A DNA stretch of 64,000 nt, from assembly GCA_052327205.1 (NCBI GenBank), contig CM126209.1, forward strand, positions 258,230,001-258,294,000, in the 5' to 3' direction. The translations under genes were made by a program, and so were the position numbers. The DNA comes from Somniosus microcephalus (taxonomy: Eukaryota). Positions 10,810-60,567 of the stretch are shown here, in pieces (position 1 is the first letter of the stretch; each line of letters opens with the position of its first letter). A model generated the notes under the pieces. It was not told the origin of the DNA. It did no database searches and saw nothing but the letters and a program-made list of their open reading frames with translations.

Positions 10810-13262
10810 CTCACTATGTGCAGAATTCTCAGAAATTGAGAATGATGCTATTCCTCCATTTGCAATGCTTTCACTCTTGGCGTGATTCTTCCCTGTCGAC
10901 GAACTGCACGTGTTGGGGAACAAGAAGTCTCCCTTCATCGAACGTGACGTTGAACATGTCTCATAGCGGAAACTTTGGGAAAGCGGATTGCCTCCAAATA
11001 CTTCAACATAGTTGGGAGGGATCCGAAGGTTCCAGCTGGCTTTCTGAATTCCATTCAGTGAATGCCTTGATTCAAAGCAGCCACACGGACCCAAAGCACA
11101 GTTGTGGCCGCCAAAGGCATTTCTGCTTTTATGAACTTTAACAGCTAGAATGATTAAAACCACCAGAAAAATGGACGAGATTATTCCTAAAGATATAACT
11201 AAGTAAAGGCTTGTATCAGAAGCGAAGTCAGGGTTTTCAGACAAACTGTTTCTGTCGGACAGCATTTCTGCATCGCCCTCTATCACTGACAATGTGATAG
11301 TCACTGTAGCGGAAAGTGCCGGTGCTCCATGGTCATTTACCAGGATGACCAACCTCTGCTTGGTTGCATCTGTCTTTGCAATACCACGGGTTGTCCATAT
11401 TTCGCCTGTATCCAGTGAAATGGTAAAAAGTCCCGAGTTAGTAGCATGGAGGATCCAGTAAGAGAGGCGAGCATTTTGTCAGAGTCGGCATCAGTGGCTG
11501 TCACCTTGGCCACCAGATAACCTGGTTCCGCGAACCGCAATACCGTCTCTGTCATTGTTGTCCCATGCTCGATTAATGGATGCACGATCACTGGGGCATT
11601 ATCATTCTGGTCAAGGATAATGATGTCCACGGCAACGTTGCTAGCGAGTGGTGGGACTCCAAGATCATGTGCCTGAACTTGGATCCGAAAGTTTTTTAAT
11701 TGTTCATAGTCAAAAGATCTATAGGAACATATAATGCCATTCTCTGAATTAATATAGATGTAATTGCTTACTGATTCACCCTGAACCTGACTGTCCAGGA
11801 TAGCACAGGATAGCCGAGCATTCTTGTCAATGTCCGCATCAACTGCTGTCACTGAGAAAATGGAGGCACCAATATTATTGTTCTCCATCACGAATGCTGT
11901 AAGGACAGGTTGCGGAAATTGTAGTGCGTTGTCATTTCTGTCTGAAACCTCAACCAGGATGGTTTGGTGGCTGTGAGAGGCGGGGTTCCTCCATCACTGC
12001 AGGTGACAGTAACATCATATGTGGAGGCGTGTTCGCAGTCCAGCAGGTCATGTGTGAGCAATCGTAAGTACTTCTTGGAGGACGAGTCCAACGTGAAAGG
12101 AAGATTATGTCCGATTTGACATTGCAGCTGCCCATTTTCACCGGAATCTCTGTCTGATGCACTGATCAGAGCCACGACAGACCCAGGCAGCAAGTCTTCA
12201 GGCACTGGGCTAGATAACGAAGTCAGTGTCACCTCAGGTGCATTAACATTTACATCAATAATGTTCAATAAAACGTGACAGTACACTGGGTTGGCGTTGG
12301 GTCCCTTGTCCTTTGCTTGTATAATAATCTCAAAACAATATTATCCTCATAGTCCAAATTCGCTTTAACTCTTATTTCACAACTTTTGGAATCCAAACTA
12401 AACAGTTCACAGACTCTAGCAGATGTATGGCTACTGAAATAATACACAATCTCTCTATTCGAACCATCATCCAAATCAGTGGCATTTACCTGCAGTACCA
12501 TGGTCCCTTTGGTCACGTTTTCAGGTAGGTCAAACCTGTAAACTGATTGAGGGAAAACCGGCGCGTTGTCATTGGCATCTTCCAGTACGATGTTGATCTG
12601 AGCAGTGCCAGACCTTTTGGGGACCCTGCCATCTTTGGCCAATAACAGTAATCGGTGGGTCGATTGCTTCTCTCTGTCCAGAGGCTTTTCCAGCCCTAAC
12701 ACTGGCAACTTCCCATCTCTAATACCCGCCTCAACATTAAGCACGAAGTATTCATTTGCAACCAGCTGGTAGGTTTGCACGGAGTTGGTCTCAACATCCG
12801 GATCGTGCATGCACTCGAAGGTGAAGCGGGCTCCCAGCGCAGCAAACTCAGAGATTTCAAGGCAGTACTGGCTCTTTGGAAAACTGGGTGCATTGTCATT
12901 TATATCCAGAATATCCACTTCGATTTGGTACAGGTTAAGAGGATTTTCAAGCACGGCCTCCAAAGACAAGATGCAAGTGAGGCTCGGCCCACAGAGCTCT
13001 TCTAGGTCAATTTTTTCCTTCACGAACAGAATCCCATTGTCGAAATTTACTTCCAAATACTGCTTTTTTGGACCTGACACAAGCCAAAAATTCCGAGCCG
13101 AGAGCTGCTTTACATTTAATCCCAAATCGTCCGCAATGTTCCCAATAAAGGCGCCCAGTTGGGAATCGAATAACGAATCTCTCCTGAAAGTAGTTTCCAG
13201 GAGATAAACATGCAATATAGCAGTTCCCATTTAAAAAAACAAAATATGTTATAACATCTCAT
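10810..13262 (-). pseudogene. Clustered protocadherin variable exon V4, pseudogene
   Basis: Full-length homology broken into four ORFs. A 10-nt deletion near 13161 removes the EEL codons, and 1-nt deletions occur near 12333, 11964 and 11478. Ca-binding motifs are altered (DRE to DLE/DCE, DVNDN to DVNVN). ATG at 13262 and donor at 10810/10809 are retained. Confidence 0.88.
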
Positions 13263-13480: not shown

Positions 13481-13677
13481 ATAGCTCACTATTCCAATTT
13501 CACATTGTTTCGGGTCGTATGTGATGGTGGATGGGAAGGGAAGGGGCAGTCAGGATCTCCAGTCACATACCAGCTTCTGATTGGCGAACCCATGTTCAGC
13601 CAATCAGAATACTGTTCATTTCTTAAAGCTAGCATATCCTGCTAAAGCGTTATTATTTGCATTTATTGTTGTGCAAC
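13481..13677 (-). promoter_or_regulatory. V4 (pseudogene) promoter module, degenerate
   Basis: Same block order as the other promoters. CSE-like part eroded (TCACTAT for TCGCTAT; TTCACATTG for TTACACTG). ATTGG 13580-13584 and CCAAT 13600-13604 are intact. Confidence 0.6.
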
Positions 13678-18009: not shown

Positions 18010-18319
18010 NNNNNNNNNNNNNNNNNNNNNNNNNNNNNNNNNNNNNNNNNNNNNNNNNNNNNNNNNNNNNNNNNNNNNNNNNNNNNNNNNNNNNNNNNNN
18101 NNNNNNNNNNNNNNNNNNNNNNNNNNNNNNNNNNNNNNNNNNNNNNNNNNNNNNNNNNNNNNNNNNNNNNNNNNNNNNNNNNNNNNNNNNNNNNNNNNNN
18201 NNNNNNNNNNNNNNNNNNNNNNNNNNNNNNNNNNNNNNNNNNNNNNNNNNNNNNNNNNNNNNNNNNNNNNNNNNNNNNNNNNNNNNNNNNNNNNNNNNNN
18301 NNNNNNNNNNNNNNNNNNN
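18010..18319. other. Assembly gap (310 N)
   Basis: Run of N that hides the start of the 5' LTR. Confidence 1.
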
Positions 18320-18943: not shown

Positions 18944-21900
18944 ATGCCTAAATCTGGTAATATTGAGGCTTTTGATGGCGAAATAGAAGATTGGACCACA
19001 TACGTGGAAAGAGTAGAGGTTTATTGCACTGCAAATGGAATAACAGATGAAAAAAAAGCTTCAGTACTTCTGAACTTAATGGGCGTGAAGGCATACGGGC
19101 TGTTACGAAATTTAATCACTCCAGCCAAACCAAAGGACAAGACTTTTAAAGAAATTGTTGATACCCTGCAGGAGCATTTAAACCCAACACCGCTGCTGAT
19201 AGCGGAACGATTCAAGTTCTTCAAGAGAAATCAACACAAGAATGAAAGTAACGCTGATTACCTAACCGAATTAAGAAAGCAATCAATGTACTGCCAATTC
19301 GGAGCAGGACTATCGGATTATCTTCGAGACAAATTTGTTTGCGGTCTCTTAAGTGAAGGAACACAAAAAAGACTGCTTTCTGAAAAAGATTTAACATTGG
19401 ACAAAGCTTTCAGTGTGGCTGTATCATACGAAGCAGCAGCAAAAGGAGCTGCAGAGATACAACAAGAGACACAGGACTTCGGCACCCATAAAATGACACA
19501 GGAGTTCGGAAGATGTTATCGCTGCGGCAGATCCACCCATAACCAGAGGGACTGCTGGTTCAAGGGCAAAGCATGCAGGCAATGTGGTAAGATTGGACAC
19601 ATTGCACGGGTATGCCAATCTGGACAAAATAAATCCACTGACAGAAAACAAAAAATCAATAAAGAAAAGTACAGGAAGGTACAAATGATGACGGACAATA
19701 GCTCCGAAGACCAGAATAGCGATAGCGACTCCGGAAACAAGAGACTAAGCTGTCTCAAATTACATAATGTACTTGCCAAAGAGGATTACCAAACCATTTG
19801 GGTTACCCTCACAATAGCAGGGTCCCCAGTTAAAATGGAGCTAGATACAGGATCAGCTCTAACCGTAGTAAATCGACGAGATTACGAGAGGCTATTTTCG
19901 CATATACCTCTAAAAGACACATCCATTATCTTAAAAACATATACGGGGCAGAAAGTCTACCCCAAAGGAAAAATAAGGGTGCCTGTGGTATACAACGGCA
20001 AAGAAATACAAAAGTTGTATTTATACATTCTACAAGATGGTGGTCCACCGTTGTTGGGACGTGAATGGATAAGGAAGATACGTTTAGACTGGCACTCCAT
20101 TCAGGCACTGACGGTGACCAGTAAGAAAAAAAACAATGATGACATCATACCTGAACGATTAAAAGACATCTTGGCCAACGCCAAAGAAGTGTTTCAAGAG
20201 AAACTAGGAACCTTGAAAGGCATCACCGCCTCAATAAAAGTGGAAGATACAGCAATTCCAAATTTTTTTAAGGCAAGACCGGTGCCATACGCAATACGTC
20301 CGGCAGTCGAGGCAGAGCTGAAGAATTTGGAAAAGGCAGGCGTATTATCCAAAATAAATTGGAGCGAATGGGCAACACCCATCGTTCCAGTCATGAAAAA
20401 AACATTGAAAAATAACTCTGAGGAACAGAGAAAAATTCGCATCTGTGGAGACTTTAAGGTGACTGTAAACCCGGTCCTTCACACGGTACAGTATCCTCTT
20501 CCGAGGATAGAAGATATTTTCGCCTCACTATCCGGAGGGAAACGTTTCACAAAAATTGACTTGGCACAGGCATATCTACAGATGGAGGTTGAGGAGACCT
20601 CTAAAAAGTATCTCACAATAAACACACACAAAGGCCTGTACCAGTACAATCGACTGGTTTTTGGAATAGCATCAGCTCCAGCTATCTGGCAAAGAGCTAT
20701 GGAGCAAGTCCTGCAAGGGATTCCGGGGACTCAATGCTACCTAGACGACATCCTTATAACAGGAGAAAACGACAACGAGCACCTTGCCAATTTGGAGCAG
20801 GTGCTCACTAGGCTGAAAGAACGGGGCCTACGAGCAAATCGCCCCAAGTGCGAATTTTTCCAAAATCAGATATCATATTGTGGCCACATAATTAATAAGG
20901 AAGGGTTGCATAAGTCACCTGAAAAAATTGAAGCAGTTATAAAAGCCCCAGCACCTGAAAATGTTTCACAATTAAGGCCATTCCTGGGATTAATAAATTA
21001 CTATCATAAATTTTTACCGAACTTATCAACTATTCTACACCCTCTTAATGATCTTCTACAGACAGGAGTGATTTGGAAATGGAACGAAGACTGTAAACGT
21101 GCCTTCCATAAATGTAAAGACTTAATCACATCCGAGAAAATTTTGGCTCATTACAACCCATCACTACCAATCAGACTGGCGTGCGATGCATCCCCTTACG
21201 GCATAGGAGTGGTATTGTCCCATAGATTCCCTGATGGCTCGGAACGGCCGATAGCTTTTGCGTCACGCTCATTGAACTCAGCTGAGCGTAACTATGCCCA
21301 GATAGACAGGGAAGCACTCAGCCTGGTATGGGGAGTGAAGAAATTCAACCATTACCTACACGGACAAAAATTTACCTTGCTGACTGACCATCAACCCCTC
21401 ATCTCCATATTCAACCCTAAAAAAGGTGTCCCCATTATGACAGCACAAAGACTACAGAGGTGGTCCCTTTTTCTAGGGGCACACCAATACAACATTGAAT
21501 ACAAAGGGTCAAAACAGCATGGGAATGCTGATGGTTTATCACACCTACTGTTGCCAACGATAGAAGAGGCACCTACAGTAGACCCAGTAGAGATATTCCA
21601 CTCTACCATAGTGGAATGTCTACCGGTGACAAATTCTGCCATTGAAAGGGAGACAAGAAATGACCCTACTCTCTCACGGGTCTACGATTTAACAGTGAAG
21701 GGATGGCCAGCACATGGCGAACCACTGTTGCCAGCATTCTCGCAAAGAAGAGAACAGCTGTCAGTGTGCCGAGGAACCTTGATGTGTGGATCCAGAGTGG
21801 TGATTCCACCCAAACTCCAGGATAAAGTGCTAAAGGAGCTTCACGAGGGGCATCTGGGTGGAGTGAAAATGAAGAACCTAGCTAGGGCGTTTGTATGGTG

Positions 21901-22930
21901 GCCAGGTATCGATGGAGACATCGAAGACATGACCAAGAGCTGCCTAGGATGCCAGAAGGTCCAAAATGCTCTGCCACAGGCCCCTCTACATCCATGGGAG
22001 TGGCCCTCATCTCCCTGGCAAAGGGTGCACATCGACTTTGCTGGTCCATTTTTGGACTCAATGTTCTTAATCGCAGTTGATGCACACTCCAAGTGGCCGG
22101 AGGTAATAAAGATGTCCTCCACCACCACGGAAAAAACCATCACAGTATTAAGGACCATATTTGCCAGGAATGGGCTGCCGGAGCAGATATGTTCTGATAA
22201 TGGACCGCAATTTGTGTCCAAAGAATTCAGAAAGTTCTTAAAGAACAATGGGGTAAAGCACTACACGTCCGCCCCATACCATCCCGCCACCAATGGATTG
22301 GCTGAAAGGTTTGTCCAGACCTTCAAGAAGGCCATCAAGGCCATGGGTAATGAAGATATAAAACTTCAGCACAAGGTGGATAACTTCTTATTTGCATATA
22401 GGAATGCAACGCATATGGTTACTAACCAAACTCCCGCCATGATGTTCTACAATAGAAACCTAAGATGCCGGCTGGATTTGGTCAAGCCCAACATCCGAAG
22501 GGACGTGGAGAACCGGCAGTTTCAGGGCATGAATGAAAGGCCAACTAGGGCCTTCCAGATAGGCCAACCGGTTTTGGCCCGGGACTACCGTACCGAGAAA
22601 TGGCAGCCTGGAACTATCTGCACACGATTAGGACCACTGATGTATACTGTGGACATCGGAGACAGCATAATAAGGTGCCATGCTGACCAAATCATCAAGT
22701 CATCCGAAAAGGGACAACCTACACCACCACTCTATACATCTAACGATGAAGTAGAGATACCCATATCTACCTCCGATCCGGTGATACTGGAGCCCGATGA
22801 ACCCGACACTGGCCTTCAAGCCGAATCAGCCTTGCCAGAAGTACCTACTACACCACCAGAAACTACTACACCCCCGAGACGTTATCCGGACCGAGTCAGG
22901 AAGCCTCCTGAGAGGCTAACTTATAATTAA
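18944..22930 (+). CDS. Gag-Pol polyprotein (two CCHC knuckles, aspartic protease, RT, RNase H, integrase)
   Basis: First ATG 18944 within ORF 18845..22930. Motifs: CYRCGRSTHNQRDC, CRQCGKIGHIARVC, LDTGS, YLDD, CDASPYG, HEGH..CLGC, HIDFAG/SDNG/AERF. No stops or frameshifts. Confidence 0.95.
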   Translation: MPKSGNIEAFDGEIEDWTTYVERVEVYCTANGITDEKKASVLLNLMGVKAYGLLRNLITPAKPKDKTFKEIVDTLQEHLNPTPLLIAERFKFFKRNQHKNESNADYLTELRKQSMYCQFGAGLSDYLRDKFVCGLLSEGTQKRLLSEKDLTLDKAFSVAVSYEAAAKGAAEIQQETQDFGTHKMTQEFGRCYRCGRSTHNQRDCWFKGKACRQCGKIGHIARVCQSGQNKSTDRKQKINKEKYRKVQMMTDNSSEDQNSDSDSGNKRLSCLKLHNVLAKEDYQTIWVTLTIAGSPVKMELDTGSALTVVNRRDYERLFSHIPLKDTSIILKTYTGQKVYPKGKIRVPVVYNGKEIQKLYLYILQDGGPPLLGREWIRKIRLDWHSIQALTVTSKKKNNDDIIPERLKDILANAKEVFQEKLGTLKGITASIKVEDTAIPNFFKARPVPYAIRPAVEAELKNLEKAGVLSKINWSEWATPIVPVMKKTLKNNSEEQRKIRICGDFKVTVNPVLHTVQYPLPRIEDIFASLSGGKRFTKIDLAQAYLQMEVEETSKKYLTINTHKGLYQYNRLVFGIASAPAIWQRAMEQVLQGIPGTQCYLDDILITGENDNEHLANLEQVLTRLKERGLRANRPKCEFFQNQISYCGHIINKEGLHKSPEKIEAVIKAPAPENVSQLRPFLGLINYYHKFLPNLSTILHPLNDLLQTGVIWKWNEDCKRAFHKCKDLITSEKILAHYNPSLPIRLACDASPYGIGVVLSHRFPDGSERPIAFASRSLNSAERNYAQIDREALSLVWGVKKFNHYLHGQKFTLLTDHQPLISIFNPKKGVPIMTAQRLQRWSLFLGAHQYNIEYKGSKQHGNADGLSHLLLPTIEEAPTVDPVEIFHSTIVECLPVTNSAIERETRNDPTLSRVYDLTVKGWPAHGEPLLPAFSQRREQLSVCRGTLMCGSRVVIPPKLQDKVLKELHEGHLGGVKMKNLARAFVWWPGIDGDIEDMTKSCLGCQKVQNALPQAPLHPWEWPSSPWQRVHIDFAGPFLDSMFLIAVDAHSKWPEVIKMSSTTTEKTITVLRTIFARNGLPEQICSDNGPQFVSKEFRKFLKNNGVKHYTSAPYHPATNGLAERFVQTFKKAIKAMGNEDIKLQHKVDNFLFAYRNATHMVTNQTPAMMFYNRNLRCRLDLVKPNIRRDVENRQFQGMNERPTRAFQIGQPVLARDYRTEKWQPGTICTRLGPLMYTVDIGDSIIRCHADQIIKSSEKGQPTPPLYTSNDEVEIPISTSDPVILEPDEPDTGLQAESALPEVPTTPPETTTPPRRYPDRVRKPPERLTYN

Positions 22931-23215: not shown

Positions 23216-23740
23216 NNNNNNNNNNNNNNNNNNNNNNNNNNNNNNNNNNNNNNNNNNNNNNNNNNNNNNNNNNNNNNNNNNNNNNNNNNNNNNNNNNNNN
23301 NNNNNNNNNNNNNNNNNNNNNNNNNNNNNNNNNNNNNNNNNNNNNNNNNNNNNNNNNNNNNNNNNNNNNNNNNNNNNNNNNNNNNNNNNNNNNNNNNNNN
23401 NNNNNNNNNNNNNNNNNNNNNNNNNNNNNNNNNNNNNNNNNNNNNNNNNNNNNNNNNNNNNNNNNNNNNNNNNNNNNNNNNNNNNNNNNNNNNNNNNNNN
23501 NNNNNNNNNNNNNNNNNNNNNNNNNNNNNNNNNNNNNNNNNNNNNNNNNNNNNNNNNNNNNNNNNNNNNNNNNNNNNNNNNNNNNNNNNNNNNNNNNNNN
23601 NNNNNNNNNNNNNNNNNNNNNNNNNNNNNNNNNNNNNNNNNNNNNNNNNNNNNNNNNNNNNNNNNNNNNNNNNNNNNNNNNNNNNNNNNNNNNNNNNNNN
23701 NNNNNNNNNNNNNNNNNNNNNNNNNNNNNNNNNNNNNNNN
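23216..23740. other. Assembly gap (525 N)
   Basis: Run of N. Confidence 1.
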
Positions 23741-33122: not shown

Positions 33123-33332
33123 GGAGCTGCTCGCTATCCAATCTTACACTGCGTCTGATCTAACGTGTTGGTGGCTGGGCAGTGAAGGGGGCAGGCCGGA
33201 TCGCCAGTCACATCTCAGCTTCTGATTGGTGAACAGAGGCACATTGAAATTCAACCAATCAGAATACCGTTCATTTCTTAAAGCTGGAAGGTCTCAAACA
33301 GACGCAGATATTTATATTTATTGTTGCACAAT
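33123..33332 (-). promoter_or_regulatory. V6 promoter module
   Basis: Sense CGCAGTGTAAGATTGGATAGCGAGCAGCTCC. 11-bp inverted repeat TTCTGATTGGT (33220-33230) / ACCAATCAGAA (33254-33264). TTGCACAAT. Confidence 0.75.
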
Positions 33333-33566: not shown

Positions 33567-34580
33567 ATTTCCAGTGGTGTACCGCAGGGATCGGTGCTGG
33601 GTCCTTTGCTGTTTGTAGTGCACATTAATGATTTAGATATGAATGTAGGAGGTATGGTCAGTAAGTTCGCAGATGACACGAAAATTGGTGGAGTGGTAAA
33701 TAGCGAGGAGGCTACAGGACGATATAGACATGTTCGTCAGATGGACAGAACATTGGCAAATGGAATTAAACCCTGAAAAGTTTGAGGTGATGCATTTTGG
33801 GAGGCCTAACAAGGCAAGGGAATACACAATGAATGGTAGGACCCTAGGGAGGATAGAGGATCAGAGGAAACTTGGTGTGCATGTACATAGACCCCTGAAG
33901 GCAGCAGGACAGGTAGATGATGTGGTTAAAACGGCATATGGGATACTTGCCTTCATTAGCCGAGGCATAGAATATAAGAGCAGGGAGGTTATGATGGAGC
34001 TGGAGAAAATGCTAGTTAGGCCACAGCTGGAATACTGTGTGTAGTTCTGGTCGCCACACTATAGGAAGGATGTGATTGCATTGGAGAGGGTGCAAAGGAG
34101 ATTCACTAGGATATTACCTGGGCGGGAGCGCTTCAGCTATGAAGAGAGCCTGGACAGGCTGTGGTTGTTTTCCTTACAACAGAGAAGGCTGAGGGGGGAC
34201 CTGATTGAGGTGTACACAATTATGAGGTGTATAGATAGGGTAGATAGAAAATAACTTTCCCCCTTAGTAGAGGGGTCAATAACCAGGGGGCTAAGTTTCA
34301 AGGTAAGGGGCAGGAGGTTTAGAGGGGATTTGAGGAAAAACCTTTTCATCCAGAGGGTGGTTGGAATCTGGAAATCACTGCCTGAAAGGGTGGTAGAGGC
34401 AGGAACCCTCACAACATTCAAGAAGCATTTAGATGAGCACTTGAAACGCCATAGCATACAAGGCTATGGACCAAGTGCTGGAAAATGGGATTAGAATTGG
34501 AAGGGCTTGATGGCCGGCATGGACACAATGGGCCGACGGGCCTTTTTCTGTGCTGTATTACTCTATGACTCTATGACTCT
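33567..34580 (+). mobile_element. CR1 LINE 3' fragment, degenerate
   Basis: SGVPQGSVLGP...FADD...RPQLEYCV...LERVQRRFTR with frameshifts, and a (CTCTATGA)n tail. Same insertion point as 40161. Confidence 0.9.
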
Positions 34581-35745: not shown

Positions 35746-37049
35746 ACAATTTTAAGGATACCTGTGCTCCCTGGCTCTCATTTGGAGCAACCTGCAAATG
35801 GTTCTCAAGTGTCTTCCCACTTTGGACCTTAGGTGAACTGTTGTGTTATTACCGGTATAGTGCCTTACTTCTTTTTGTAATGTTGAAATTGCATTACATA
35901 TCCTTAGGACCCGAGGTGCTGTATTTATAGAATTTGGAAAAGTATCAACAGGTCTCAATGAATATTTCATTGGGACCTTGTTGTGGTGATTCAGCCAAAC
36001 CTACAATCTCATGTTCTAATTGCCCACTTTGAAATTGGCTGTGCAACCGTTGGATGGTAATTTCAATGTTTGCTCACTAAAATTCACATCCAGGAGAGAA
36101 GATTGGCACTTTGCATTAACACACTAACCTTTTTGCTCTCGTGCATGGGCTTCAATTCCGCTCAGACTAAGTGGCTGACATTATCATCTCTCTTTCTGCG
36201 GTCACTGTCCAGAAATATGTAGGTACAAATCTCCTACCATATCTATAGAGCGCGATGGGGTGTGAGGGAGTGACTGGAGTTGAACGGTGGTCTCCACTGC
36301 AGTCTTTCCAGACACAATGATATATTTTCCATGTGGTTATGCATCTGGACAGAACTCCATTCACTAGTATCGAAATATTACTTTGAAGAGATCTGACGTA
36401 CACACTGATTCCCTGTTGACACTAAAAAGATTCAAAATTAATATTTTAAGATATTTAACAGATCTAAAGGAAGTTTTTCTGCAATTTGTGTGATGTCCAA
36501 CAATACAACACGACCTGATTAATTTAGGATGATCTGAAACGCAGAAACATACTGATATTAATTAGTTGCAACTAACATGCTGACACCATGACAATTAGGG
36601 TGTAACCAACAGTTACAGTACCTGACTATAATTCTTATTCTACTGCCAAGGAAAGGACTTGCACAGTTTCTCGCAAGATAGTTAAATGTAAACGTTTAGA
36701 GAATGTGGGACAATGTCAAACTTCGTATACATTTAAATAAACTCCATTTGGTTTGGAAAGTGCCCACAGTATCATATGGGGCTCCAGCACACTTGTTAAA
36801 CCCGGGTTGACAATGCATTGGAGTTACATAAAATCAAAAAGAAACATAAACACATCCTATGAGATACCATTATATAGCAACGCGACAGGCATGTTGACTA
36901 GCAATAGAAATAGTGCAGGAAACTGAGAATTTTGCCCTTAAGATATTACTTGCATCCTATTCATTTGAATGAGCTGGCTTTTCCTAAATGTATCTGTACA
37001 CCCAAATCAAACCTGTGGGGATCTTCTTCCAATTTTAGAAGCACCTCAC

Positions 37050-39518
37050 CTCATTGCTCACATTGTTGCTGTAATTTTCAGAATTCATCATGCCTGGGTT
37101 TCCTTTCCTGATAGATTCATTCTGGACATAGTTCTTGCCTGTAGATGATCTGCAGGTGTTGGGGGTGATAAAGTCTCTCTTTGTTGACTGCAATGTTGAA
37201 CATGATTCGTAGCGGAAACTCTGAGAAAGTGGATCACCCCCGAATACCTCAACATAGTTTGGTGGTATCTGAAGGTTTCTACTGGCCTTTTGAATTCCAT
37301 TCAGAGAATTTCTGCTTTCAAAGCAGCGACAAATACCTAGGGAAGTGTGCTGTCCCCCCAAACCATTTCTGCTTTTATGAACCTTAACAGCCAGGATAAT
37401 CAAAATCACTAGAAAAATGATAGAAATTATCCCTAAGGCGATGACCAAGGAAAGGCTCATATCAGGATTGAATCCAGGGTCTTCAGGAAAATCACTCACA
37501 TTAGAAAACATTTCAGTATTGCTTCCCACCACAGATAGGATGATAGTCACAGTGGCAGAAAGGGATGGTGTTCCATTGTCTCTTACCACAATCACCAATC
37601 TTTGCTTAGAGGCATCTTTATTCGCAATACGACGGATAGTCCAAATTTCTCCAGTGTCTGGTGAAATAGTAAAAAGGTTATGATGGGTGGCCTGAAATAT
37701 CTGATAAGAAAGACGAGCATTCTGACCGGCGTCAGCATCAGTGGCCGATACCTTGGCAACCAAGTAGCCTGGTTCTGCAAGCCTGGATATTGTTTCTGTT
37801 GCTGTCGACCCATACTCGGGTAATGGGTGCACGATCACTGGAACATTGTCATTCTGATCAAGGATAACAACATCGACTGAAACGTGGCTGGCGAGTGTTG
37901 GGACTCCAGAATCCTGGACCTGAACTTGGATCTGAAAGTTTTTCAATTGCTCGTAGTCAAAAGATCTCTGAGCAAATATGACGCCACTCTCTGAGTTTAT
38001 GGCGACATAACTGGCTGCCGAGGCGCCCTGAACTTGAGTCTCCAGGATAGAGTAGTTCAGTCGAGCGTTCTGTCCTACATCTGGATCGAAGGCTGTCACT
38101 GAGAATATGGAAGTCCCAATGACGTTGTTCTCCATCACGTTTGCCGTGTATAAATGCTGCGTAAACCTTGGTGCGTTGTCATTGATATCCGAAACCTCTA
38201 CCCGAATGGTTTTCTTGGATGTGAGAGGAGGGTTTCCCGCATCCCGGCATGTTATAGTAACGTCATACCTGGAGGTATGTTCGCGGTCCAGTAGATGCTG
38301 AATCAGCAGTCTATAATAGTTCTTCAGAGATGAATCTAATTTAAAGGGCAGTATATTTGAAATTTGACATTGTATCTGCCCGTTTTGTCCCGAATCTTTG
38401 TCTGCTGCACTGAACAGAGCCACTACAGTCCCAGTTGCAGCATCTTCTGACACTGTACTTGCCAAAGACGTCAACGTCACCTCAGGTGCATTATCATTCA
38501 CGTCAATAATGTTCAGCAACACATCACAGTGCCCAGACATTGCGTCAGAACCCTTGTCCATTGCTTGTATGTTAATCTCAAAAATATTGCTTTCTTCATA
38601 GTCCAAATTCCCTTTCACTCTGATTTCGCCAGTTTTGGAATCTACGCCAAACAGTTCATGGGCTATAGCGGCAGTATGGCCACTGAGCGAGTACATTATC
38701 TCCCCATTGGAACCATCGTCCAAGTCAGTGGCGTTTAATGTGATTATCAGGGTTCCCGTGGGTGCAGTTTCCAACAGGCTGACCCTATAAACCGACTGGG
38801 GAAAAACCGGCGCGTTGTCGTTAGCATCCTTTACTATGATTGTAACCTGAACAGTGCCCGATCTTACAGGGACCCCGCCGTCCTTGGCTATTAGCGTTAA
38901 CCTGTGGGTGGATTCCGTTTCTCTATCCAAGGACCTCTGCAACACTAACACTGGCAACTTTCTTTCCCCGCTGTGAATTTGTACATCGAGAATAAAATAA
39001 TCGTTCGGGAGGAGCTGGTAGGTTTGTACTGAGTTGTTTCCAATGTCCGGATCGTGCGCGGACTCGAGGGGGAAGCGCGCTCCCGGCGCAGCAAGCTCGG
39101 AGATTTCAAGGCGGATCTCGTCCTTTGGAAAACTGGGAGCATTGTCATTTACATCGAGAATCTCCACTTCAACCTGATACAGATTGAGGGGATTTTCAAG
39201 CACAACATCCAAGGTTAACACACAAGCGAGGCTCGGCCCGCAAATCTGTTCTCTGTCAATTTTATCCTTGACAAATAAATTTCCATTGTCTAAATTTACC
39301 TCCAAATACTGTTCGCTGGGCCCGGCGACAACCCGCAAACTGCGAGCCGAGAGCTGCCTCACATCTAAACCCAAATCGGCGGCGATATTCCCAACAAAGG
39401 CGCCCAGTTGCAATTCTTCAGGAATCGAATAATGAATCCTCCCAGAAACGAGATCCCACGAGGAGAACACACAGAACAATAGTTGGCATTTCAGCAACCA
39501 ATATATTTTAAATCTCAT
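37050..39518 (-). CDS. Clustered protocadherin variable exon V7 (823 codons)
   Basis: ORF 37035..39539, ATG 39518, donor GAG|GTGAGG at 37050/37049. Confidence 0.95.
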
Positions 39519-39716
39519 TTCCAGCGTAAAACATCCCAATTGTTTCAGTATGTGTCTGCACCACTAATTATGCTTTTTACAGTAATTTGACATTTTTTAA
39601 CTCGACGTACTACGATGTAACAAATACCTGCACATTTTGCGAATCGCTCGGCTTTGGTTCATTTAAATCTTCCCATTTTGTCTCAAATTGTCACTGGATG
39701 CTTGCACAAATCGTTC

Positions 39717-39926
39717 GGAGCTGCTCGCTATCCAATCTTACACTGCGTCTGATCTTACGTGTTGGTGGCTGGGCAGTGAAGGGGGCAGGCCGGATCGCCA
39801 GTCACATCTCAGCTTCTGATTGGTTGAATTTCAATGTGCCTCTGTTCACCAATCAGAATACCGTTCATTTCTTAAAGCTGGAAGGTTTCAAACCAGCGCA
39901 GATATTTATATTTTTTGTTGCACAAT
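39717..39926 (-). promoter_or_regulatory. V7 promoter module, with the inter-CCAAT segment inverted
   Basis: As V6, but 39825-39847 is the reverse complement of the corresponding segment in V6, V8, V9 and V10. Confidence 0.75.
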
Positions 39927-40160
39927 GAAAAATTGAATTAAGCCTTTCCTTCAGTCTGTAGGTTTCTGTCTTTTGCGAAAAGTTAGCTCTAGAACTGAAT
40001 TGCAACGAATATCTTAATGGTCAGCTATGAGGGATCTGCATACAAGAAATAAATGCACAAGAACGGATGGAGCCAGCATAACACTTTGGGCCCATCAATA
40101 CAACTCCTTTTATAATCCATTTATGATTATTCCTTCAAGGTATTCCAACTCCAAACAGCT

Positions 40161-43125
40161 ATTTCCAGTGGTGTACCGCAGGAATCGGTGCTGGGTCCTT
40201 TGCTGTTTGTAGTGTACATTAATGATTTAGATATGAATGTAGGAGGTGTGATCAGTAAGTTCGCAGATGACACGAAAATTGGTGGAGTGGTAAATAGCGA
40301 GGAGGGAAGCCTCAGGCTACAGGACGATATAGACAGGTTGGTCAGATGTACAGAACAGTGGCAAATGGAATTTAACCCTGAAAAGTGTGAGGTGATGCAT
40401 TTTGGGGGACTAACAAGGCAGGGGAATACGCAATGTATGGTAGGACTCTAGGAAGGTCAGAGGATCAGAGGGAACTTGGTGTGCATGTACATAGACCCCT
40501 GAAGGCAGCAGGACAGGTAGATGATGTGGTTAAAACGGCATATGGGATACTTGCCTTCATTAGCCGAGGCATAGAATATAAGAGCAGGGAGGTTATGATG
40601 GAGCTGTACAAAATGCTAGTTAGGCCATAGCTGGAATACTGTGTGTAGTTCTGGTCGCCACACTATAGGAAGGATGTGATTGCTTTGGAGAGGGCGCAGA
40701 GGAGATTCACCATGATGTTACCTGGGCTGGAGTGCTTCAGCTATGAAGAGAGACTGGACAAGCTGGGGTTGTTTTCCTTAGAGCAGAGAAGGCTGAGGGG
40801 GGACCTGATTGAGGTGTACACAATTATGAGGGGCGTAGATAGGGTAGATAGAAAGGAACTTTTCCCCTTAGTAGAGGGGTCAATAACCAGGGGGCATAGT
40901 TTCAAGGTAAGGGGCAGGAGGTTTAGAGGGGATTTGAGGAAAAAAAAATTCATCCAGAGGGTGGTTGGAATCTGGATATCACTGCCTGAAAGGGTGGTAG
41001 AGGGAGGAACCCTAACAACATTCATAGAGTCATAGAGTCATAGAGTTTTACAGCACAGAAAGAGGCCCTTCGGCCCATCGTGTCTGCGCCGCCCATCCAT
41101 CCCTGTCCAGTCTAATCCCATTTTCCAGCATTTGGTCCATAGCCTTGTATGCAATGGCATTTCAAGTGCTCATCCAAATGCTTCTTGAATGTTGTGAGGG
41201 TTCCTGCCTCTACCACCCTTTCAGGCAGTGAGTTCCAGATTCCAACCACCCTCTGGGTGAAAAGGTTCCTCCTCAAATCCCCTCTAAATCTCCTGCCCCT
41301 TACCCTGAATCTATGCCCCCTTGTTATTGACCCCCCTACTAAGGGGAAAAGTTCCTCTTTGTCTACCCTATCTATGCCCCTCATCATTTTGTACACCTCA
41401 ATCAGGTCCCCCCTCAGCCTTCTTTGCTCCAAGGAAAACAACCCCAGCCTGTGTAGTCTTTCTTCATAGCTGAGGCGCTCCATTCCAGGTAACATCCTGG
41501 TGAATCTTCTCTGCACCCTCTCCAAAGCAATCACATCCTTCCTATAGTGAGGTGACCAGAACTGCACACAGTACTCCAGCTGTGGCCTCACCAGCGTTTT
41601 GTACAGCTCCATCATAACCTCCCTGCTCTTATATTCTATGCCTCGGCTAATGAAGGCAAGTATCCCATATGCCTTTTTAACCACCTTATCTACCTGTTCC
41701 GCTGCCTTCAGGGATCTATGTACATGTACACCAAGGTCCCTCTGACCCTCTGTACTTCCTAGGGTCCTACCACTCATTGTGTATTCCCTTGCCTTATTTG
41801 TCCATCCAAAATGCATCACCTCGCACTTTTCAGGGTTAAATTCCATTTGCCACTTTTCCGCCCATCTGACCAACCCGTTTATATCGTCCTGTAGCCTGAG
41901 GCTTTCCTCCTCGCAATTTACCACCCCACCAATTTTCGTGTCATCTGCGAACTTGCTGATCATACCTTTTACATTCTCATCCAAATCATTTATGTAGATC
42001 ACAAACAACAAGGGACCCAGCACCGATCCCTGAGGTACCCCACTGGACACAGGCTTCCAGTCACAAAAGCAACCTTCGACCATCACCCTCTGCCTCCTGC
42101 CACTCAGCCAGTTTAGGATCCAACGCGCCAAGGCACCCTGGATCCCATGGGCTCTTACCTTCTTGACCAGTCTCCTATGCGGGACTTTGTCAAAAGCTTT
42201 ACTGAAGTCCATGTAAACCACATCCACAGCATTTCCCTCATCCACCCCCCTAGTCACCCCCTCGAAAAATTCAATCAGATTTGTCAGACATGATTTACCC
42301 TTGACAAAGCCATGCTGACTATCCCCGATTAATCCTTGCCTCTCCAAGTGGAGACTAATTTTGTCCCTCAGAATTTTTTCCAATAATTTCCCTACCACAG
42401 ATGTTAGGCTCACTGGCCTGTAGTTCCCTGGTTTATCCCTGCTACCCTTCTTGTGTAATGGTACTACATTAGCTGTTCTCCAGTCCTCTGGTACATCCCC
42501 TGTGGCCAGAGAGGTTCTGAAAATTTGTGTCAGTGCCCCTGCAATCTCCTCCTTTGCCTCCCACAGCAGCCTGGGATACATCTCGTCCGGGCCTGGGGAT
42601 TTATCCACTTTTTGGCCTGCTAAAACCGCTAGCACCTCCTCCCTCTCGATGCTAATATGTTCAAGTATGTCACAGTCCCCTTGCCCGATTTCTATGTCCG
42701 CATCGTCTTTCTCCATAGTGAACACAGATGCAAAAAATTCATTTAAAACCCCGCCTACATCATCTGGCTCTACACACAGATTGCCACTTTGGTCCCTAAT
42801 GGGCCCTACCCTTTCCCTGGTTATCCTCTTGCCCTTAATATACTTATAAAACATCTTAGGATTTTCCTTTATTTTGCTCGCCAGTGTTATTTCATGGCCC
42901 CTCCTCGCCCTCCTAATTTCTTTTTTAAGTATGCCCCTGCACTTTTTATACTCCTCTAGGGCTTCTTCCGTCTTTAGTTGAGCACTTGAAACGCCATAGC
43001 ATACAAGGCTATGGACCAAGTGCTGGAACATGGGATTAGAATTGGAAGGGCTTGATGGCCGGCATGGACACGATGGGCCGAAGGGCCTCTTTCTGTGCTG
43101 TATAACTTTATGACTCTATGACTCT
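40161..43125 (+). mobile_element. CR1 LINE 3' fragment (paralog of 33567-34580), split by a younger antiparallel CR1
   Basis: Flanked by AGCT at 40157-40160 and 43126-43129. The host sequence stops at about 41024 and resumes at about 42978. Confidence 0.88.
41025..42977 (-). mobile_element. Young CR1 LINE, 5'-truncated, with an uninterrupted RT reading frame of about 620 aa
   Basis: ORF 41112..43031, whose first ~18 aa come from the host: KSPGPD, NYRPVSLTS, QHGF, DFSKAFD, GVPQGSVLGP, FADD. Tail (CTCTATGA)n at about 41025-41046. Confidence 0.93.
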
Positions 43126-45525
43126 AGCTGTTGATTCCTAATTAAGGAAGACTCAACTTTATCCGCATCCTCCCATAAAGATCAATTGGCACTATTCAGA
43201 TTTCTATAATGCTCCTCCTCTCTTCCAAATGGAAGCCAACCGTCTTATTAAGCTGTTATAGCACATAGAATAAAATGCATTCTCTGCGCCACACGATCTA
43301 TAACCTGTTAAAAAGGCATTTTCTAATCTCTAACAGTGCTTGGTCATTGCGAATTTTATGCTTAACTCCCCTATTTTTACACTCAGGTCCAAGTTAAGCA
43401 GTTTGTTATCTTCAGTTTTATATATAGCTGTCAATATGTTAAAGGCTTGCATGCGTAAACCCCCTATCTTCTTTTCTAAAGTGCAAAGAAATACAGTTAT
43501 CTAAGCCGTTAGTCAACACTTAATGCCAACGGCCTAAGATCATCCTGGTCAGCCTTCAAACTCTTTCTAATGCAGGTATGATATTTTTGACCAACACTGC
43601 AGGCCATACTCCGGAATTGGCCGTAAACTTATTTGTGCAAATTCAGCAGAAGTTGTCAGGACTTAAAAACCAGTACTTTTCTGTTAATGCTCCATTCTCA
43701 ATTTGTCATATTACAACCTCTTTTCCATTGACTAGAAGCATTCAGGGTGTAATCCACGATCACTCCCATATCTTTTAAAAACTTTTTCAGCCTATGCCGG
43801 TGGAGATTTTTTTATTGTACACATGCTTGCTGATATTTGATGATATATAGATGATATTACTTTTATCCACATTAAAGACATATTTCCATTTACTTCATTG
43901 GCAAATGTCATTCTGCAAATAATCATGTTTCTTCCACCTCATTACCTGCATATACACATCTTTGTGTCACCAGGAAAAGTAATAACACGACTACACCATG
44001 CCCATATGATTTACAAACATTGTTAAAGGTAGAGATCCAAGAAAGGATCCTTGAAGAATATGCCAGGAAATAGTAACCACCGACTTCTGTCTTCTGCCAC
44101 TAAGTCAATTCTCATTCCATCTAGATAATATGCAATCTGTTCCATGAGCCTTAAACTCATCTACCAGTCTAATGTTTGGACTGTTGTCACTTGCCCATTG
44201 TAAGTCTAAGTAAACTACATCTATTGATATAATCTAGCTTAGTTATCTCTCAAAGAATTCCATTATAGTGGTAAGTTGCAACCTTTCATTTCTAAAACAA
44301 TTTTAAGGATACTTGTGCTCACTGCCTCTCAGTTGGAGCATCCTGCAAATGGTTCTCAAGTGTCTTCCCACTTTGGACGTTAGGTGAACTGTTGTGTTAT
44401 TACCAGTATAGTGCCTTACTTCTTTTTCTAATGTTGAAATTGCATTACATATCCTTAGGTCCCTAGGTGCTGTATTTATAGAATTCGGAAAAGTATCAAC
44501 AGGTCTCAATGAATATTTCATTGGGACCTTGTTATGGTGATTCAGCCAAACCTACAATCTCATGTTCTAATTACCCACTTTGAATTTAACTGTGCAACCG
44601 TTGGATGGTAGTTTCAATGTTTGCTCACTAAAATACAAATCCAGGAGAGAAGATTGGCACATTGCATTAACACACTAACCTGTCACTGTCCAGAAATATA
44701 TAGGTACAAATCTCCTACCATATCTATAGAGCGCGATGGGGTGTGAGGGAGTGACTGGAGTTGAACGGTGGTCTCCCCTGCCATCTTTCCAGACACAGGG
44801 ATATATTTTCCATGTGGTTATGCATCTGGACAGAGCTCCATTCACTGGTATCGAAATATTACTTAGAAGAGATCTGACGTACACACTGATTCCCTGTAGA
44901 CACTAAAAAGATTCAAAATTAATATTTTAAAGATATTTAACAGATCTAAAGGAAGTTTTTCTGCAATTTGTGTGATGCTCAACAATACAACACGACCTGA
45001 TTAATTTAGGATGATCTGAAACTCAGAAACGTACTGATATTAATTAGTTGCAACTAACACGCTGACACCATGACAATTAGGATGTAACCAACAGTTACAG
45101 TACCTGACTATAACTCTTGTCCTACTGCCAAGGAAAGGACTTGCACAATTTCTCGCAAGATAGTTCAATGCAAACGTTTAGAGAATGTGGGACAATGTCA
45201 AACTTCGTATACGTTTAAATAAACTCCATTTGGTTTGGAAAGTGCCAACAGTATCATATGGGGCTCCAGCACACTTGTTAAACCCGGGTTGACAATGCAT
45301 TGGAGTTGCATAAAATCAAAAAGAAAGATAAACACATCCTAGGAGATACCATTATATAGAAACGCGACAGGCATGTTGAATAGAAATAGTGCAGGAAACT
45401 GAGAATTTTGCCCTTAAGATATTACTTGCATCCTATTCATTTGAATGAGCTGGCTTTTCCTAAATGTATCTGTACACCCAAATCAAACCTGTGGGGATCT
45501 TCTTCCAATTTTACAAGCACCTCAC

Positions 45526-48192: not shown

Positions 48193-48403
48193 GGAGCTGC
48201 TCGCTATCCAATGTTACACTGCGTCTGATCTTACGTGTTGGTGGCTGGGTAGTGAAGGGGGCAGGCCGGATCGCCAGTCACATCTCAGCTTCTGATTGGT
48301 GAACAGAGGCACATTGAAATTCAACCAATCAGAATACCGTTCATTTCTTAAAGCTGGAAGGTCTCAGACCAGCGCAGAATATTTATATTTATTGTTGCAC
48401 AAT
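48193..48403 (-). promoter_or_regulatory. V8 promoter module
   Basis: CSE-like block at 48193-48225; inverted repeat arms at 48290-48300 and 48324-48334. Confidence 0.75.
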
Positions 48404-54884: not shown

Positions 54885-55090
54885 GGAGCTGCTCGCTATC
54901 CAATGTTACACTGCGTCTGATCTTACGTGTTGGTGGCTGGGTAGTGAAGGGGGCAGGCCGGATCGCCCGTCACATCTCAGCTTCTGATTGGTGAACAGAG
55001 GCACATTGAAATTCAACCAATCAGAATACCGTTCATTTCTTAAAGCTGGAAGGTCTCAAACCAGCGCAGATATTTATATTTTTTGTTGCA
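54885..55090 (-). promoter_or_regulatory. V9 promoter module
   Basis: CSE-like block at 54885-54917; inverted repeat arms at 54982-54992 and 55016-55026. Confidence 0.75.
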
Positions 55091-57694
55091 GAATTAAAAA
55101 TTGAATGAAGCATTTCCTTCAGTCTGTAGCTTTCTGTCTGTTGCGAAAAGTTAGCTCTAGAACTAAAATACAACGAATATGTTAATGGTAAGCTATGAGG
55201 AACCTGTATACAATAAATAAAAACATAAGAACGGAAGGAGCCAGCATAACACTTTGGGACATCAACACAGTTCCATTTATGATCCATATACGGTTATTCC
55301 TTCATGGTTTTCCAACTCCAAACTGCTGTTGATTCCTAATTAGGAAAGACTAAATCTTTTCTGCATCCTTCCATCAAGATCAATCAACAAAATTCAGATT
55401 TTTGTAATCCTCCACCTCTCTTCCAAACGGAAATCCAGCTAGCCATCTTAGTAAAGTATTATGTCACCAATAATAAACACCATACTCGGCGCCACACAAC
55501 CACTAACCTGTGAAAAAGATGTTTTCTGATCTCTAAGAGTGCTTCGTCATTGCGAATTTCATGCTTAACTCCCCTATTCTTACGATCAGGTCCAAGTTAA
55601 GTACTTTGTTATCTTCAATTTTATCTATAGCTTTCAATATTTTAAAGGCTTGCATGCGTAAACCCCACTATCTCCTTTTCTAAAGTTCAAATAAATGAAG
55701 TTATCTAAGCCGTTTGTCAAAACTTAATGCCATCATCCTGGTCACCCTTCAAACTCTTTCTAATGCAGGTATGATATTTTTGACCAACACTGCAGGCCAT
55801 ACTCCGGAACTGGCCGTAAACTTATTTGTGCAATTTCAGCAGAAGTTGTCAGGACTTGAAAACCAGTACTTTTCAGTTAATGCTCCATTCTCAATTTGTC
55901 ATATTACAACCTCTTTCCCATTAATTAGATGCTTTCAGTGTATAATCCACGATCACACCCATATCCTTTAAAAATAGTTTCCAGCCTATGCCAGTGGAGA
56001 TTTTTTCTTCTTTTGCACATGCTTGCTGATAATTGTTGATATATAGATGATCTTACTTTTATCCACATTAAAAACATATTTCAGTTTTCATCATTTGTAA
56101 ATGTCATTCTGCAAAAGATCATGTTTCTTCCACCTCACTACCTGCATTCACAGACCTTTGTGTCACCAGGAAAAGTAATAACACGACTACACCATGCCCA
56201 TATGATTTACAAACATCGTTAAAGGTAGAGATCCAGGAAAGAATCCTTGAAGAATATGCCAGGAAATAGTAACCACTGACTTCTGTCTTCTGGCACTAAG
56301 TCAATTCTCATTCCATCTAGATAATATGTCATCTATTCCATAAGCCTTAAACTCCTCTACCAGTCTAACGTTTGGACTGTTGTCACTTGTCCATTTCAAA
56401 TCTAAGTAAACTACATCTATTGATATAATCTAGCTTAGTTATCTCTCAAAGAACTTCACTATAGTGGAAAGGTGCAGCCTTTCATTTCTACAAGGATTTT
56501 AAGGATACCTGTGCTCCCTGGCTCTCATTTGGAGCATCCCGCAAATGGTTCTCAAGTGTCTTTCAACTTTGGATGTTAGGTAAACTGTTGTGTTATTACC
56601 AGTATAGTGTCTTGCTTCTTTTTGTAATGTTGAAATTGCATTACAACATTACAATGAATATTTCATTGGGACCATGTTGTGGTGATTCAGCCAAACCTTC
56701 AATCTCCTGTGCTAATTACCCACTTTGAAGTTAGCCATGCAAACACATTGGATGGTAGTTTCAATGTTTGCTTACTTAAACTCAAATCCAGGAGAGAAGA
56801 TTGGCACATTGCATTAACGCACAGGCCTTTTTGCTATCGTGCGTATGCTTCAATTCCGCCCAGACTAAGTGGCTGACATTTTATCATCTCTCTTTTTGCT
56901 GTTAGTGGCCAGAAATATAAAGTAACCAATCACCTACCATATCTATAGAGCGCGATGGGGTGTGAGGGAATGACTGGAGTTGGATAGTGGTCTCCCCTGC
57001 AGTCTTTCCAGACACAGGGATATATTTTCCATGTGGTTACACATCTGGACAGAACTGCATTCACTGGCATCTAAATATTACTTTGAAGAGAACTGACGAA
57101 CACACCGATTCCCTGTTGATACTACAAGATTCAAAATGAATATTTTAAAGATATTTAACAGATCTAAAGTAAGTTTTTCTGCAATTTGTGTGAAGCCCAA
57201 GAATACAAGAGGAGCTGATTAACTTAGGATGATCTGAAACTGAGAAACCAACTTATATTAATTAGTTGGAACTAACACACTCACACCATGGCAACTAGGA
57301 TGTAACCAACAGTTACAGTACCTGGCTAGAACTCTTATTCTACTCTCAATGAAAGGGCTTGCACAGTTACGTGTATGCTCAGAGTTTCTCTCAAGTTAGT
57401 TAAATTTAAACGTTTAGAGAGTGTGGGATAATGTCAAACTTCCTATATGCTTAAATAAACTCCATTTCGAGTTACATATAATCAAAAAGAAACATAAATA
57501 CATCCGAGGAGATACCATTATATAGCGAAGCGACAGCCATGTTGACTAGAAATAGAAATAGTGCAGAAAACTGAGAATTTTGTCCTTAAGATATTACTTG
57601 CATCCTATTCATTTGAATGAGCTGGCTTTTCCGAAATGTACCTGTACACCCAAATCAAACCTGTTGGGATCTTCTTCCAATTTTAGAACCTCAC

Positions 57695-60360: not shown

Positions 60361-60567
60361 TGCTGCCCGCTATCCAATGTTACACTGCGTCTGATCTTAC
60401 GTGATGGTGGCTGGGTAGTGAAGGGGGCAGGCCGGATCACCAGTCACATCTCAGCTTCTGATTGGTGAACAGAGGCACATTGAAATTCAGCCAATCAGAA
60501 TACCGTTCATTTCTTAAAGCTGGAAAGTCATAATCCTGAGCAGAAGACTCATTTATTGTTGCACAAT
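60361..60567 (-). promoter_or_regulatory. V10 promoter module
   Basis: Sense CGCAGTGTAACATTGGATAGCGGGCAGCA; arms at 60456-60466 and 60490-60500 (one mismatch). Confidence 0.75.

What the first reader, a model, noticed from the sequence alone, without database searches (positions are those of the whole stretch)
39814..39858. Exact 23-bp inversion between the inverted CCAAT boxes of the V7 promoter: a possibly flippable promoter cassette
Seen: V6, V8, V9 and V10 read TTCTGATTGGT-GAACAGAGGCACATTGAAATTCA-(A/G)CCAATCAGAA. V7 reads TTCTGATTGGT-TGAATTTCAATGTGCCTCTGTTC-ACCAATCAGAA, where 39825-39847 is the perfect reverse complement with no base gained or lost. The arms are an 11-bp perfect inverted repeat made of the two CCAAT boxes, extendable by GAA/TTC with one bulge, so box spacing is preserved. 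Established: short inverted repeats promote micro-inversions by template switching, and invertible promoter segments drive phase variation in bacteria. Inference: most simply a single germline event. However, V6-V10 all carry the same substrate in a locus built for stochastic promoter choice, so recurrent, polymorphic or somatic flipping is worth testing. No recombinase is encoded in this window.
Basis: partly seen in the sequence, partly recalled or inferred. Interest (0 to 1): 0.75.

Follow-up and report, generated by a model that had tools for sequence, protein, structure and literature searches.

The report
Micro-inversion in shark protocadherin promoter
One of ten related promoters in a shark brain cell-adhesion gene cluster carries an exact 23-letter flip between two mirror-image CCAAT boxes, most likely an ordinary one-off inherited copying accident rather than a genetic switch, though it swaps the better-matching and worse-matching box and might fine-tune that gene.

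Summary
The 45-bp block 39814-39858 in the V7 promoter is the exact reverse complement of the block in V6, V8 and V9 (45/45) and V10 (44/45); the minimal inverted core is 39825-39847, between 11-bp arms built from two opposed CCAAT boxes. The locus is a shark clustered-protocadherin array (best curated matches: elephant-shark Pcdh-nu). Nine of ten promoters share one orientation, outgroup promoters polarise V7 as derived, its likely sister V6 is unflipped, and it is the only clear inversion in the five duplicated units. Size, purity and abutting inverted repeats match published vertebrate micro-inversions (17-33 nt), ascribed to replicative template switching; the loop is too short for a site-specific recombinase. 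The CTCF-like element lies outside the flip. One predicted consequence: the distal box fits the NF-Y consensus in nine of ten promoters, and only V7 has the pair swapped. Contigs of four related organisms show the common orientation; raw DNA reads were not available, so polymorphism, recurrence and somatic flipping remain untested. Verdict: real, most likely a single tolerated germline event of a known class; a phase-variation-like switch is unsupported.

The parts
39825..39847 (.). Minimal inverted core (23 bp) of the V7 promoter
   Evidence: Exact reverse complement of the core in V6, V8, V9, V10
39814..39824 (-). Gene-proximal arm (11 bp) with CCAAT box reading on the sense strand (ATTGG at 39819-39823 on +); in V7 it fits RRCCAATSR
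   Evidence: Sequence; arms; consensus test
39848..39858 (+). Gene-distal arm (11 bp) with CCAAT box reading on the + strand (39849-39853); in V7 alone it fails RRCCAATSR (C at -2)
39720..39749 (-). Conserved promoter block about 200 bp upstream of the ATG, candidate CSE/CTCF site; outside the inversion and in the same orientation as in the paralogs
   Evidence: Conserved across paralogs; CTCF identity is inferred from position (PMC4978886) and a recalled motif, not tested
37035..39518 (-). V7 variable exon: intact 827-codon protocadherin frame with six cadherin repeats, transmembrane segment and GAG/GTGAG donor
   Evidence: closest named proteins are shark protocadherins (84-85%), curated matches Pcdh-nu (68% to nu17)
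33220..33264 (.). V6 double-CCAAT block, common orientation (likely sister of V7)
48290..48334 (.). V8 double-CCAAT block, common orientation
54982..55026 (.). V9 double-CCAAT block, common orientation
60456..60500 (.). V10 double-CCAAT block, common orientation, 10-bp perfect arms
13575..13609 (.). V4 (frameshifted exon) double-CCAAT block, 11-bp perfect arms, 20-bp box spacing, common orientation, strongest hairpin (-15.6 kcal/mol)

Best explanation
The V7 promoter carries an exact inversion between two opposed CCAAT boxes, most likely a single inherited replication accident (likely template switching at the 11-bp inverted repeat) after V7 split from V6, and probably tolerated. The repeat exists because two palindromically placed, likely NF-Y-bound boxes are conserved in all ten promoters; it is a by-product substrate, not a switch. 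Because the arms are symmetric the flip equals turning the whole double-box module round in place: box spacing (30 bp) and hairpin energy are kept, the CTCF-like element and everything nearer the ATG are untouched. The only predicted change is that the consensus-matching box becomes proximal and the weaker box distal, which may shift V7 strength or start site modestly (inferred).
For: Shown: exact, length-neutral inversion with arms abutting its borders. 1 of 10 promoters flipped; V1 and V3 spacers match the V6 orientation at 17/25 each, the V7 orientation at 7/25 and 8/25; V6+V7 group at 83/87 and 92/94 support. It is the only clear inversion in the five 3.2-3.4-kb units. V7 exon intact, dN/dS 0.34-0.52 in all six whole-exon pairs among V6-V9, V7-specific changes (8 syn, 14 nonsyn) like V8 (10, 25) and V9 (11.5, 18.5). 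Known class: 59 human-chimp micro-inversions of 17-33 nt, all flanked by abutting inverted repeats, 45 pure; template switching fits those with longer perfect arms, recombination and recombinases are argued out (PMC8755829); spacer inversion by inter-strand switching (PMC5453318 passages); such events are enriched in TF-binding sites (PMC7954356 passage). All 4 of 4 laid runs of related organisms show the common orientation as loose ends.
Against: The mechanism is inferred from anatomy only; break-induced repair is an alternative for this class (PMC8755829 abstract). Neutrality is not shown: the spacer lies in a core with 7 variable columns of 150 among V6, V8, V9, V10 against 131 of 350 outside (summed), it is as conserved as its flanks in distant paralogs (17/25 versus 18-27/32), and the strong-distal/weak-proximal asymmetry is kept in 8 of 10 promoters. 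On the genome-wide rate in PMC8755829 only about 0.02 inversions would be expected in these units (my arithmetic: 3400 bp x 0.25 substitutions per site x 2e-5), so this substrate is probably a local warm spot; one flip gives a rate of about 4 times the per-site substitution rate, 95% interval 0.1-22, biased upward by ascertainment. Gene conversion or selection could hide earlier flips.
Confidence: 0.78

Rival explanations
1. The double-CCAAT hairpin is a recurrent germline flip site: the same inversion arises repeatedly across paralogs, individuals and shark species, and the two states differ in promoter output, giving heritable tuning of protocadherin isoform usage.
For: A conserved functional palindrome keeps the substrate alive in six promoters with arms of 10 bp or more; conserved stem-loops allow recurrent inversions in chloroplasts (PMC3123225 passage); human template-switch events are often polymorphic (PMC5453318); the flip swaps the consensus and non-consensus box; among the six promoters with long arms 1 of 6 flipped does not reject random orientation (p 0.22).
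Against: 9 of 10 promoters share one orientation (p 0.02 under random orientation, paralogs not independent), including V4 with the most stable hairpin and a broken exon; the common orientation is what is seen in 4 of 4 laid runs; avian micro-inversion hotspots were not linked to stem-loops (PMC3123225).
Confidence: 0.14
2. The segment flips somatically in neurons as a programmed or semi-programmed switch that contributes to promoter choice, like bacterial phase variation.
For: Only context: a multi-promoter neuronal locus with a shared inverted repeat. No positive sign.
Against: No site-specific recombinase among six non-cadherin ORFs scanned and no RSS heptamer or nonamer in 39501-40150 (motifs recalled); a 23-45 bp loop is below what synapsis allows (PMC8755829 Discussion); template switching needs replication; mammalian choice is explained by CTCF/cohesin looping and methylation (PMC7811963, PMC8787164 passages); both states keep both boxes, so there is no evident on/off logic.
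Confidence: 0.02
3. The flip is an assembly or library artefact and V7 really has the common orientation.
For: Inverted repeats can produce chimeric reads (recalled); the window has two N gaps; no raw reads of the source were seen.
Against: The flip needs 38 junction 31-mers found nowhere else in the window, which an assembler cannot make from an 11-bp repeat (inference); V7 flanks carry their own private letters; comparable human events were confirmed in reads by two technologies (PMC5453318).
Confidence: 0.05

Closest known systems
Inverted-repeat-flanked micro-inversions of primate genomes (Potapova et al. 2022, PMC8755829; four-point template-switch model, PMC5453318, PMC7954356)
   Same: Length 23 bp within 17-33 nt, pure reverse complement, arms abutting the borders, arms over 8 nt as in about 39% of their cases, single derived lineage.
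   Different: Here the comparison is between paralogs, the arms are themselves conserved transcription-factor boxes repeated in every promoter of an array, and the flip swaps a consensus and a non-consensus box.
Hairpin-loop micro-inversions of chloroplast spacers (as summarised in PMC3123225)
   Same: A conserved stem keeps an invertible loop available over long times.
   Different: Those flip recurrently; here one flip is seen among ten promoters.
Bacterial invertible promoters (phase variation; fimS, hin, Bacteroides invertons; recalled)
   Same: A promoter segment between short inverted repeats found in two orientations.
   Different: No dedicated recombinase in the window, a loop of 23 bp rather than hundreds, no directional element inside, and the two orientations sit at different paralogs rather than mixed at one site.
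Paired inverted CCAAT boxes in human promoters (CENP-B preprint 10.64898/2026.04.10.717743, passages)
   Same: [quoted passage not shown]
   Different: That work concerns hairpin binding in human cells and, in the passages read, not inversion; nothing similar was tested here.
Clustered protocadherins, elephant-shark nu subcluster
   Same: Tandem 2.4-2.5 kb variable exons, each with its own promoter and splice donor; 68% identity to Pcdh-nu17.
   Different: Known promoter element is the CSE/CTCF site; a paired CCAAT module was not found described in my searches.

Membership tests
IR-flanked micro-inversion | Segment of 15 nt or more that is the (near) exact reverse complement of its homolog | tested here: met
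   23-bp core, 45/45 over the block
IR-flanked micro-inversion | Inverted repeats whose inner edges abut the inversion | tested here: met
   11-bp perfect arms 39814-39824 and 39848-39858
IR-flanked micro-inversion | Derived state assigned to one lineage by outgroups | tested here: met
   V1 and V3 spacers 17/25 to the V6 orientation, 7-8/25 to V7; trees
IR-flanked micro-inversion | Origin by template switching rather than break-induced repair | not testable with these tools
   Both leave the same product (PMC8755829)
Phase-variable invertible promoter | Dedicated site-specific recombinase | tested here: inconclusive
   None among six non-cadherin ORFs scanned (reverse transcriptases, a retroelement integrase, three without family); rest of the genome not held
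Phase-variable invertible promoter | Loop long enough for synapsis of the repeats | tested here: not met
   23-45 bp against the argument that under 33 bp is physically impossible, persistence length about 145 bp (PMC8755829)
Phase-variable invertible promoter | Directional promoter element inside the invertible segment giving on/off states | tested here: inconclusive
   Both boxes and their spacing survive the flip and the CTCF-like block lies outside; start site not mapped
Phase-variable invertible promoter | Both orientations of one site coexist in a sample | not testable with these tools
   No raw DNA reads among the 19 runs listed
Clustered protocadherin variable exon | Tandem single exons encoding six cadherin repeats, transmembrane and short cytoplasmic part, each with promoter and splice donor | tested here: met
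   Ten exons, donors in V2-V10, Pfam cadherin domains
Clustered protocadherin variable exon | Splicing to shared constant exons | not tested
   Not looked for; shark homologs of about 1040 aa extend beyond the exon
Pcdh-nu subcluster | Groups with elephant-shark nu rather than mu or epsilon | tested here: inconclusive
   The five hits of the 120 listed that carry a subcluster name are all nu; no tree with mu or epsilon was built
NF-Y CCAAT box | RRCCAATSR consensus (PMC11802806) | tested here: met
   At least one box fits in 10 of 10 promoters: distal 9 of 10, proximal 2 of 10
NF-Y CCAAT box | NF-Y binding and effect on transcription | not testable with these tools
   Needs EMSA, ChIP or reporters

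The most novel reading that the evidence does not exclude
The paired CCAAT boxes of shark Pcdh-nu promoters form a built-in two-state toggle: template switching flips the module recurrently, moving the strong NF-Y site between distal and proximal position, so that each paralog's odds of being chosen in neurons are retuned by a reversible heritable (and perhaps progenitor-somatic) DNA flip without a recombinase.
Probability: 0.07. Interest if true: 0.75.

Novelty: new member of a known kind. Interest (0 to 1): 0.25.

Why it matters
As a single event it is an ordinary, clean example of a known mutation class, useful as a lineage marker and as a natural test of whether the order of a strong and a weak CCAAT box matters. 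If flips proved recurrent and changed output, it would show that a transcription-factor palindrome can double as a reversible regulatory toggle in a neuronal identity locus, a vertebrate echo of phase variation. The side result, a conserved pair of opposed CCAAT boxes 20 or 30 bp apart in every promoter of this shark cluster, may be of more lasting interest for how protocadherin promoters evolved.

Tried and rejected
Own genome: not held, so the rest of the cluster could not be surveyed. Sequencing runs: 19 listed, best share of words 0.53, no RNA holder listed; I laid 4 of the 19 (X1, X2, X4, X8; all contigs; 145 records laid). No strand-changing joint was listed and none of the 32 pieces shown (114 more not shown) crosses the V7 spacer. 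In X2 a contig runs five unfitting letters past 39824 and overlaps the next common-orientation contig by 30 letters, so no V7-type branch is evident there, but X2 also lacks the V6/V7 letters at 39737 and 39774; contigs drop minority variants, so this is no evidence of absence. X1 and X2 hold V7-like upstream pieces (0 differences over 136 letters, 1 over 128) yet differ at other V7-private letters, and 31-mer contigs cannot link those letters to the spacer. Metagenome scan for the box pair: 16 loci, 0 of 16 similar to the window by BLAST at E 1e-4. Scan for other inversions in V6-V10: one further 10-bp hit at the ragged start of the alignment (45211-45220 against 57404-57413), set aside as chance. 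DECA-CCAAT composite (10.64898/2026.02.16.706105, passages): 0 of 10 promoters. RSS-like motifs near V7: none. An earlier arm-perfecting switch (outer TTCTG only in V4 and V6-V10): V4 placement unsupported (45/26), so one origin suffices. My early note that the spacer is not conserved in distant paralogs was wrong. Earlier findings of the scan: nothing in three look-ups. Literature: no paper with protocadherin, shark and NF-Y; listings showed no title on CCAAT pairs or inversions in protocadherin promoters. The elephant-shark cluster paper (Yu et al. 2008) was seen only as a citation and may describe these motifs; supplements were not read.

Full report
Observation. The V7 block 39814-39858 is the reverse complement of the corresponding block of V6, V8 and V9 at 45 of 45 positions and of V10 at 44 of 45, while same-strand identity is 24 of 45. 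Any symmetric inversion from 23 bp (39825-39847) to 45 bp reproduces V7 from V6 with no other change, so the event can be read either as a flip of the core or as a flip of the whole double-box module. The flanks of V7 align with the paralogs without disturbance. The perfect arms are 11 bp in V4 and V6-V9 and 10 bp in V10; six of the fifteen perfect inverted repeats with arms of 10 bp or more and loops of 3-40 bp in the window are these promoter pairs. Both orientations fold alike, -9.6 to -10 kcal/mol.

Locus. The window holds ten tandem protocadherin variable exons on the minus strand, interspersed with LINE-type reverse transcriptase frames and one LTR-retroelement polyprotein. V7 encodes an intact 827-codon frame ending at a splice donor. 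Its closest named relatives are shark proteins (84-85% to sawshark, about 80% to white shark and catshark), and the hits with a subcluster name are elephant-shark Pcdh-nu. Cartilaginous fishes have delta, epsilon, mu and nu subclusters (PMC2764143, PMC4978886, passages). Stochastic promoter choice through CTCF, cohesin and methylation is documented for mammals (PMC7811963, PMC8787164, passages); that it holds here is an inference.

Why the repeat exists. All ten promoters carry an ATTGG...CCAAT pair, about 335-350 bp upstream of the ATG in the eight where this was measured, spaced 30 bp in seven, 20 bp in two and 29 bp in one; a further 20-bp-spaced paralog appears as a loose end in three of four laid runs. 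Steps of one helical turn suggest two phased protein-binding sites, most simply NF-Y, whose site is RRCCAATSR (PMC11802806 passage); binding is inferred. Opposed CCAAT boxes forming inverted repeats are common in human promoters (preprint 10.64898/2026.04.10.717743, abstract and passages). The repeat therefore needs no explanation as a recombination substrate.

History. V1 and V3, distant paralogs with the same spacing, match the V6 orientation at 17 of 25 positions and the V7 orientation at 7 and 8 of 25. V6 and V7 group together in unit and exon trees (83/87 and 92/94), though the promoter-only tree leaves V6-V9 unresolved. One flip on the V7 branch explains all ten promoters. A scan of the five 3.2-3.4-kb units found this as the only clear inversion, besides one 10-bp edge hit set aside. 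Random orientation is unlikely over all ten promoters (p 0.02, not independent) but is not rejected for the six with long arms (p 0.22).

Mechanism. Human-chimpanzee comparison gave 59 definite micro-inversions of 17-33 nt, all flanked by abutting inverted repeats and mostly pure; the authors exclude homologous recombination (needs 50 bp or more) and site-specific recombinases (loop too short) and accept template switching for longer perfect arms, proposing break-induced repair as the general alternative (PMC8755829, abstract, first parts of Results and Discussion). Spacer inversion by inter-strand switching is described in PMC5453318 and PMC7954356 (passages). V7 fits this class in every feature that could be tested. 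Which of the two routes made it cannot be told from the product.

Consequence. Spacing and both core pentamers are kept, and the conserved CTCF-like block at 39720-39749 lies about 65 bp outside and is unchanged (CTCF identity inferred). The flip is not invisible, however: the distal box fits the NF-Y consensus in 9 of 10 promoters and the proximal in 2 of 10, and V7 alone has weak-distal, strong-proximal. The spacer also sits in a strongly conserved core (7 variable columns of 150 versus 131 of 350 outside, summed) and is no less conserved than its flanks in distant paralogs. The V7 exon shows no sign of decay, which suggests tolerance, but a young flip would not yet have left a trace.

Other genomes. 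Of 19 runs listed, none offered raw DNA reads. Contigs of four organisms (4 of the 19 runs) all show the common orientation as loose ends at the block borders; whether any holds the V7 orientation could not be read from the cut tables, and contigs do not show absence. A metagenome scan gave 16 unrelated loci. Polymorphism, recurrence and somatic flipping thus remain open but have no positive support.

Verdict. A real, exact micro-inversion of a known class, most likely one germline event (0.78); recurrent functional hotspot 0.14; artefact 0.05; somatic switch 0.02. I found no paper on this inversion or on CCAAT pairs in shark protocadherin promoters, but the main elephant-shark paper was not read. 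Interest 0.25.

Noticed in passing
window 884-60500, all ten promoters: Opposed CCAAT boxes are spaced 30 bp (7 promoters), 20 bp (2) or 29 bp (1), steps of about one helical turn, with a conserved strong-distal, weak-proximal asymmetry; not found described for protocadherin promoters in my searches.
   Followed up: partly
window 10774-13262 (-): V4 exon is broken by frameshifts, yet its promoter keeps 11-bp perfect arms and the most stable hairpin (-15.6 kcal/mol, z -7.5) in the common orientation.
   Followed up: partly
window 13600-13609 and 33255-60500 distal arms: The outer arm letters TTCTG that perfect the repeat occur only in V4 and V6-V10; other paralogs differ there, which could be an older arm-perfecting template switch. 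The tree does not show two origins.
   Followed up: partly
window 18944-22930 (+): Intact 1328-codon LTR-retroelement polyprotein (protease, reverse transcriptase, RNase H, integrase) inside the cluster, flanked by two N gaps (18010-18319, 23216-23740).
   Followed up: partly
window 33570-34420, 40164-41024, 41112-43031: V6 and V7 share a LINE-type insertion just upstream of their promoters, in keeping with their being the youngest pair; a longer reverse-transcriptase frame follows upstream of V7.
   Followed up: partly
window 39720-39749 and paralogs: Conserved CAGTGTAA...GCGAGC block about 200 bp upstream of each ATG, a candidate CSE/CTCF site; the CGCT letters lie on the non-coding strand here.
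   Followed up: no
window 5729-5824: Two adjacent perfect inverted repeats (12-bp arms with a 7-bp loop, 19-bp arms with a 21-bp loop) between V2 and V3, origin not examined.
   Followed up: no
V6-V9 exons, codons 450-660: Synonymous divergence is lower (0.02-0.06) than in codons 130-350 (0.06-0.17), the pattern reported for gene conversion of the membrane-proximal repeats.
   Followed up: no
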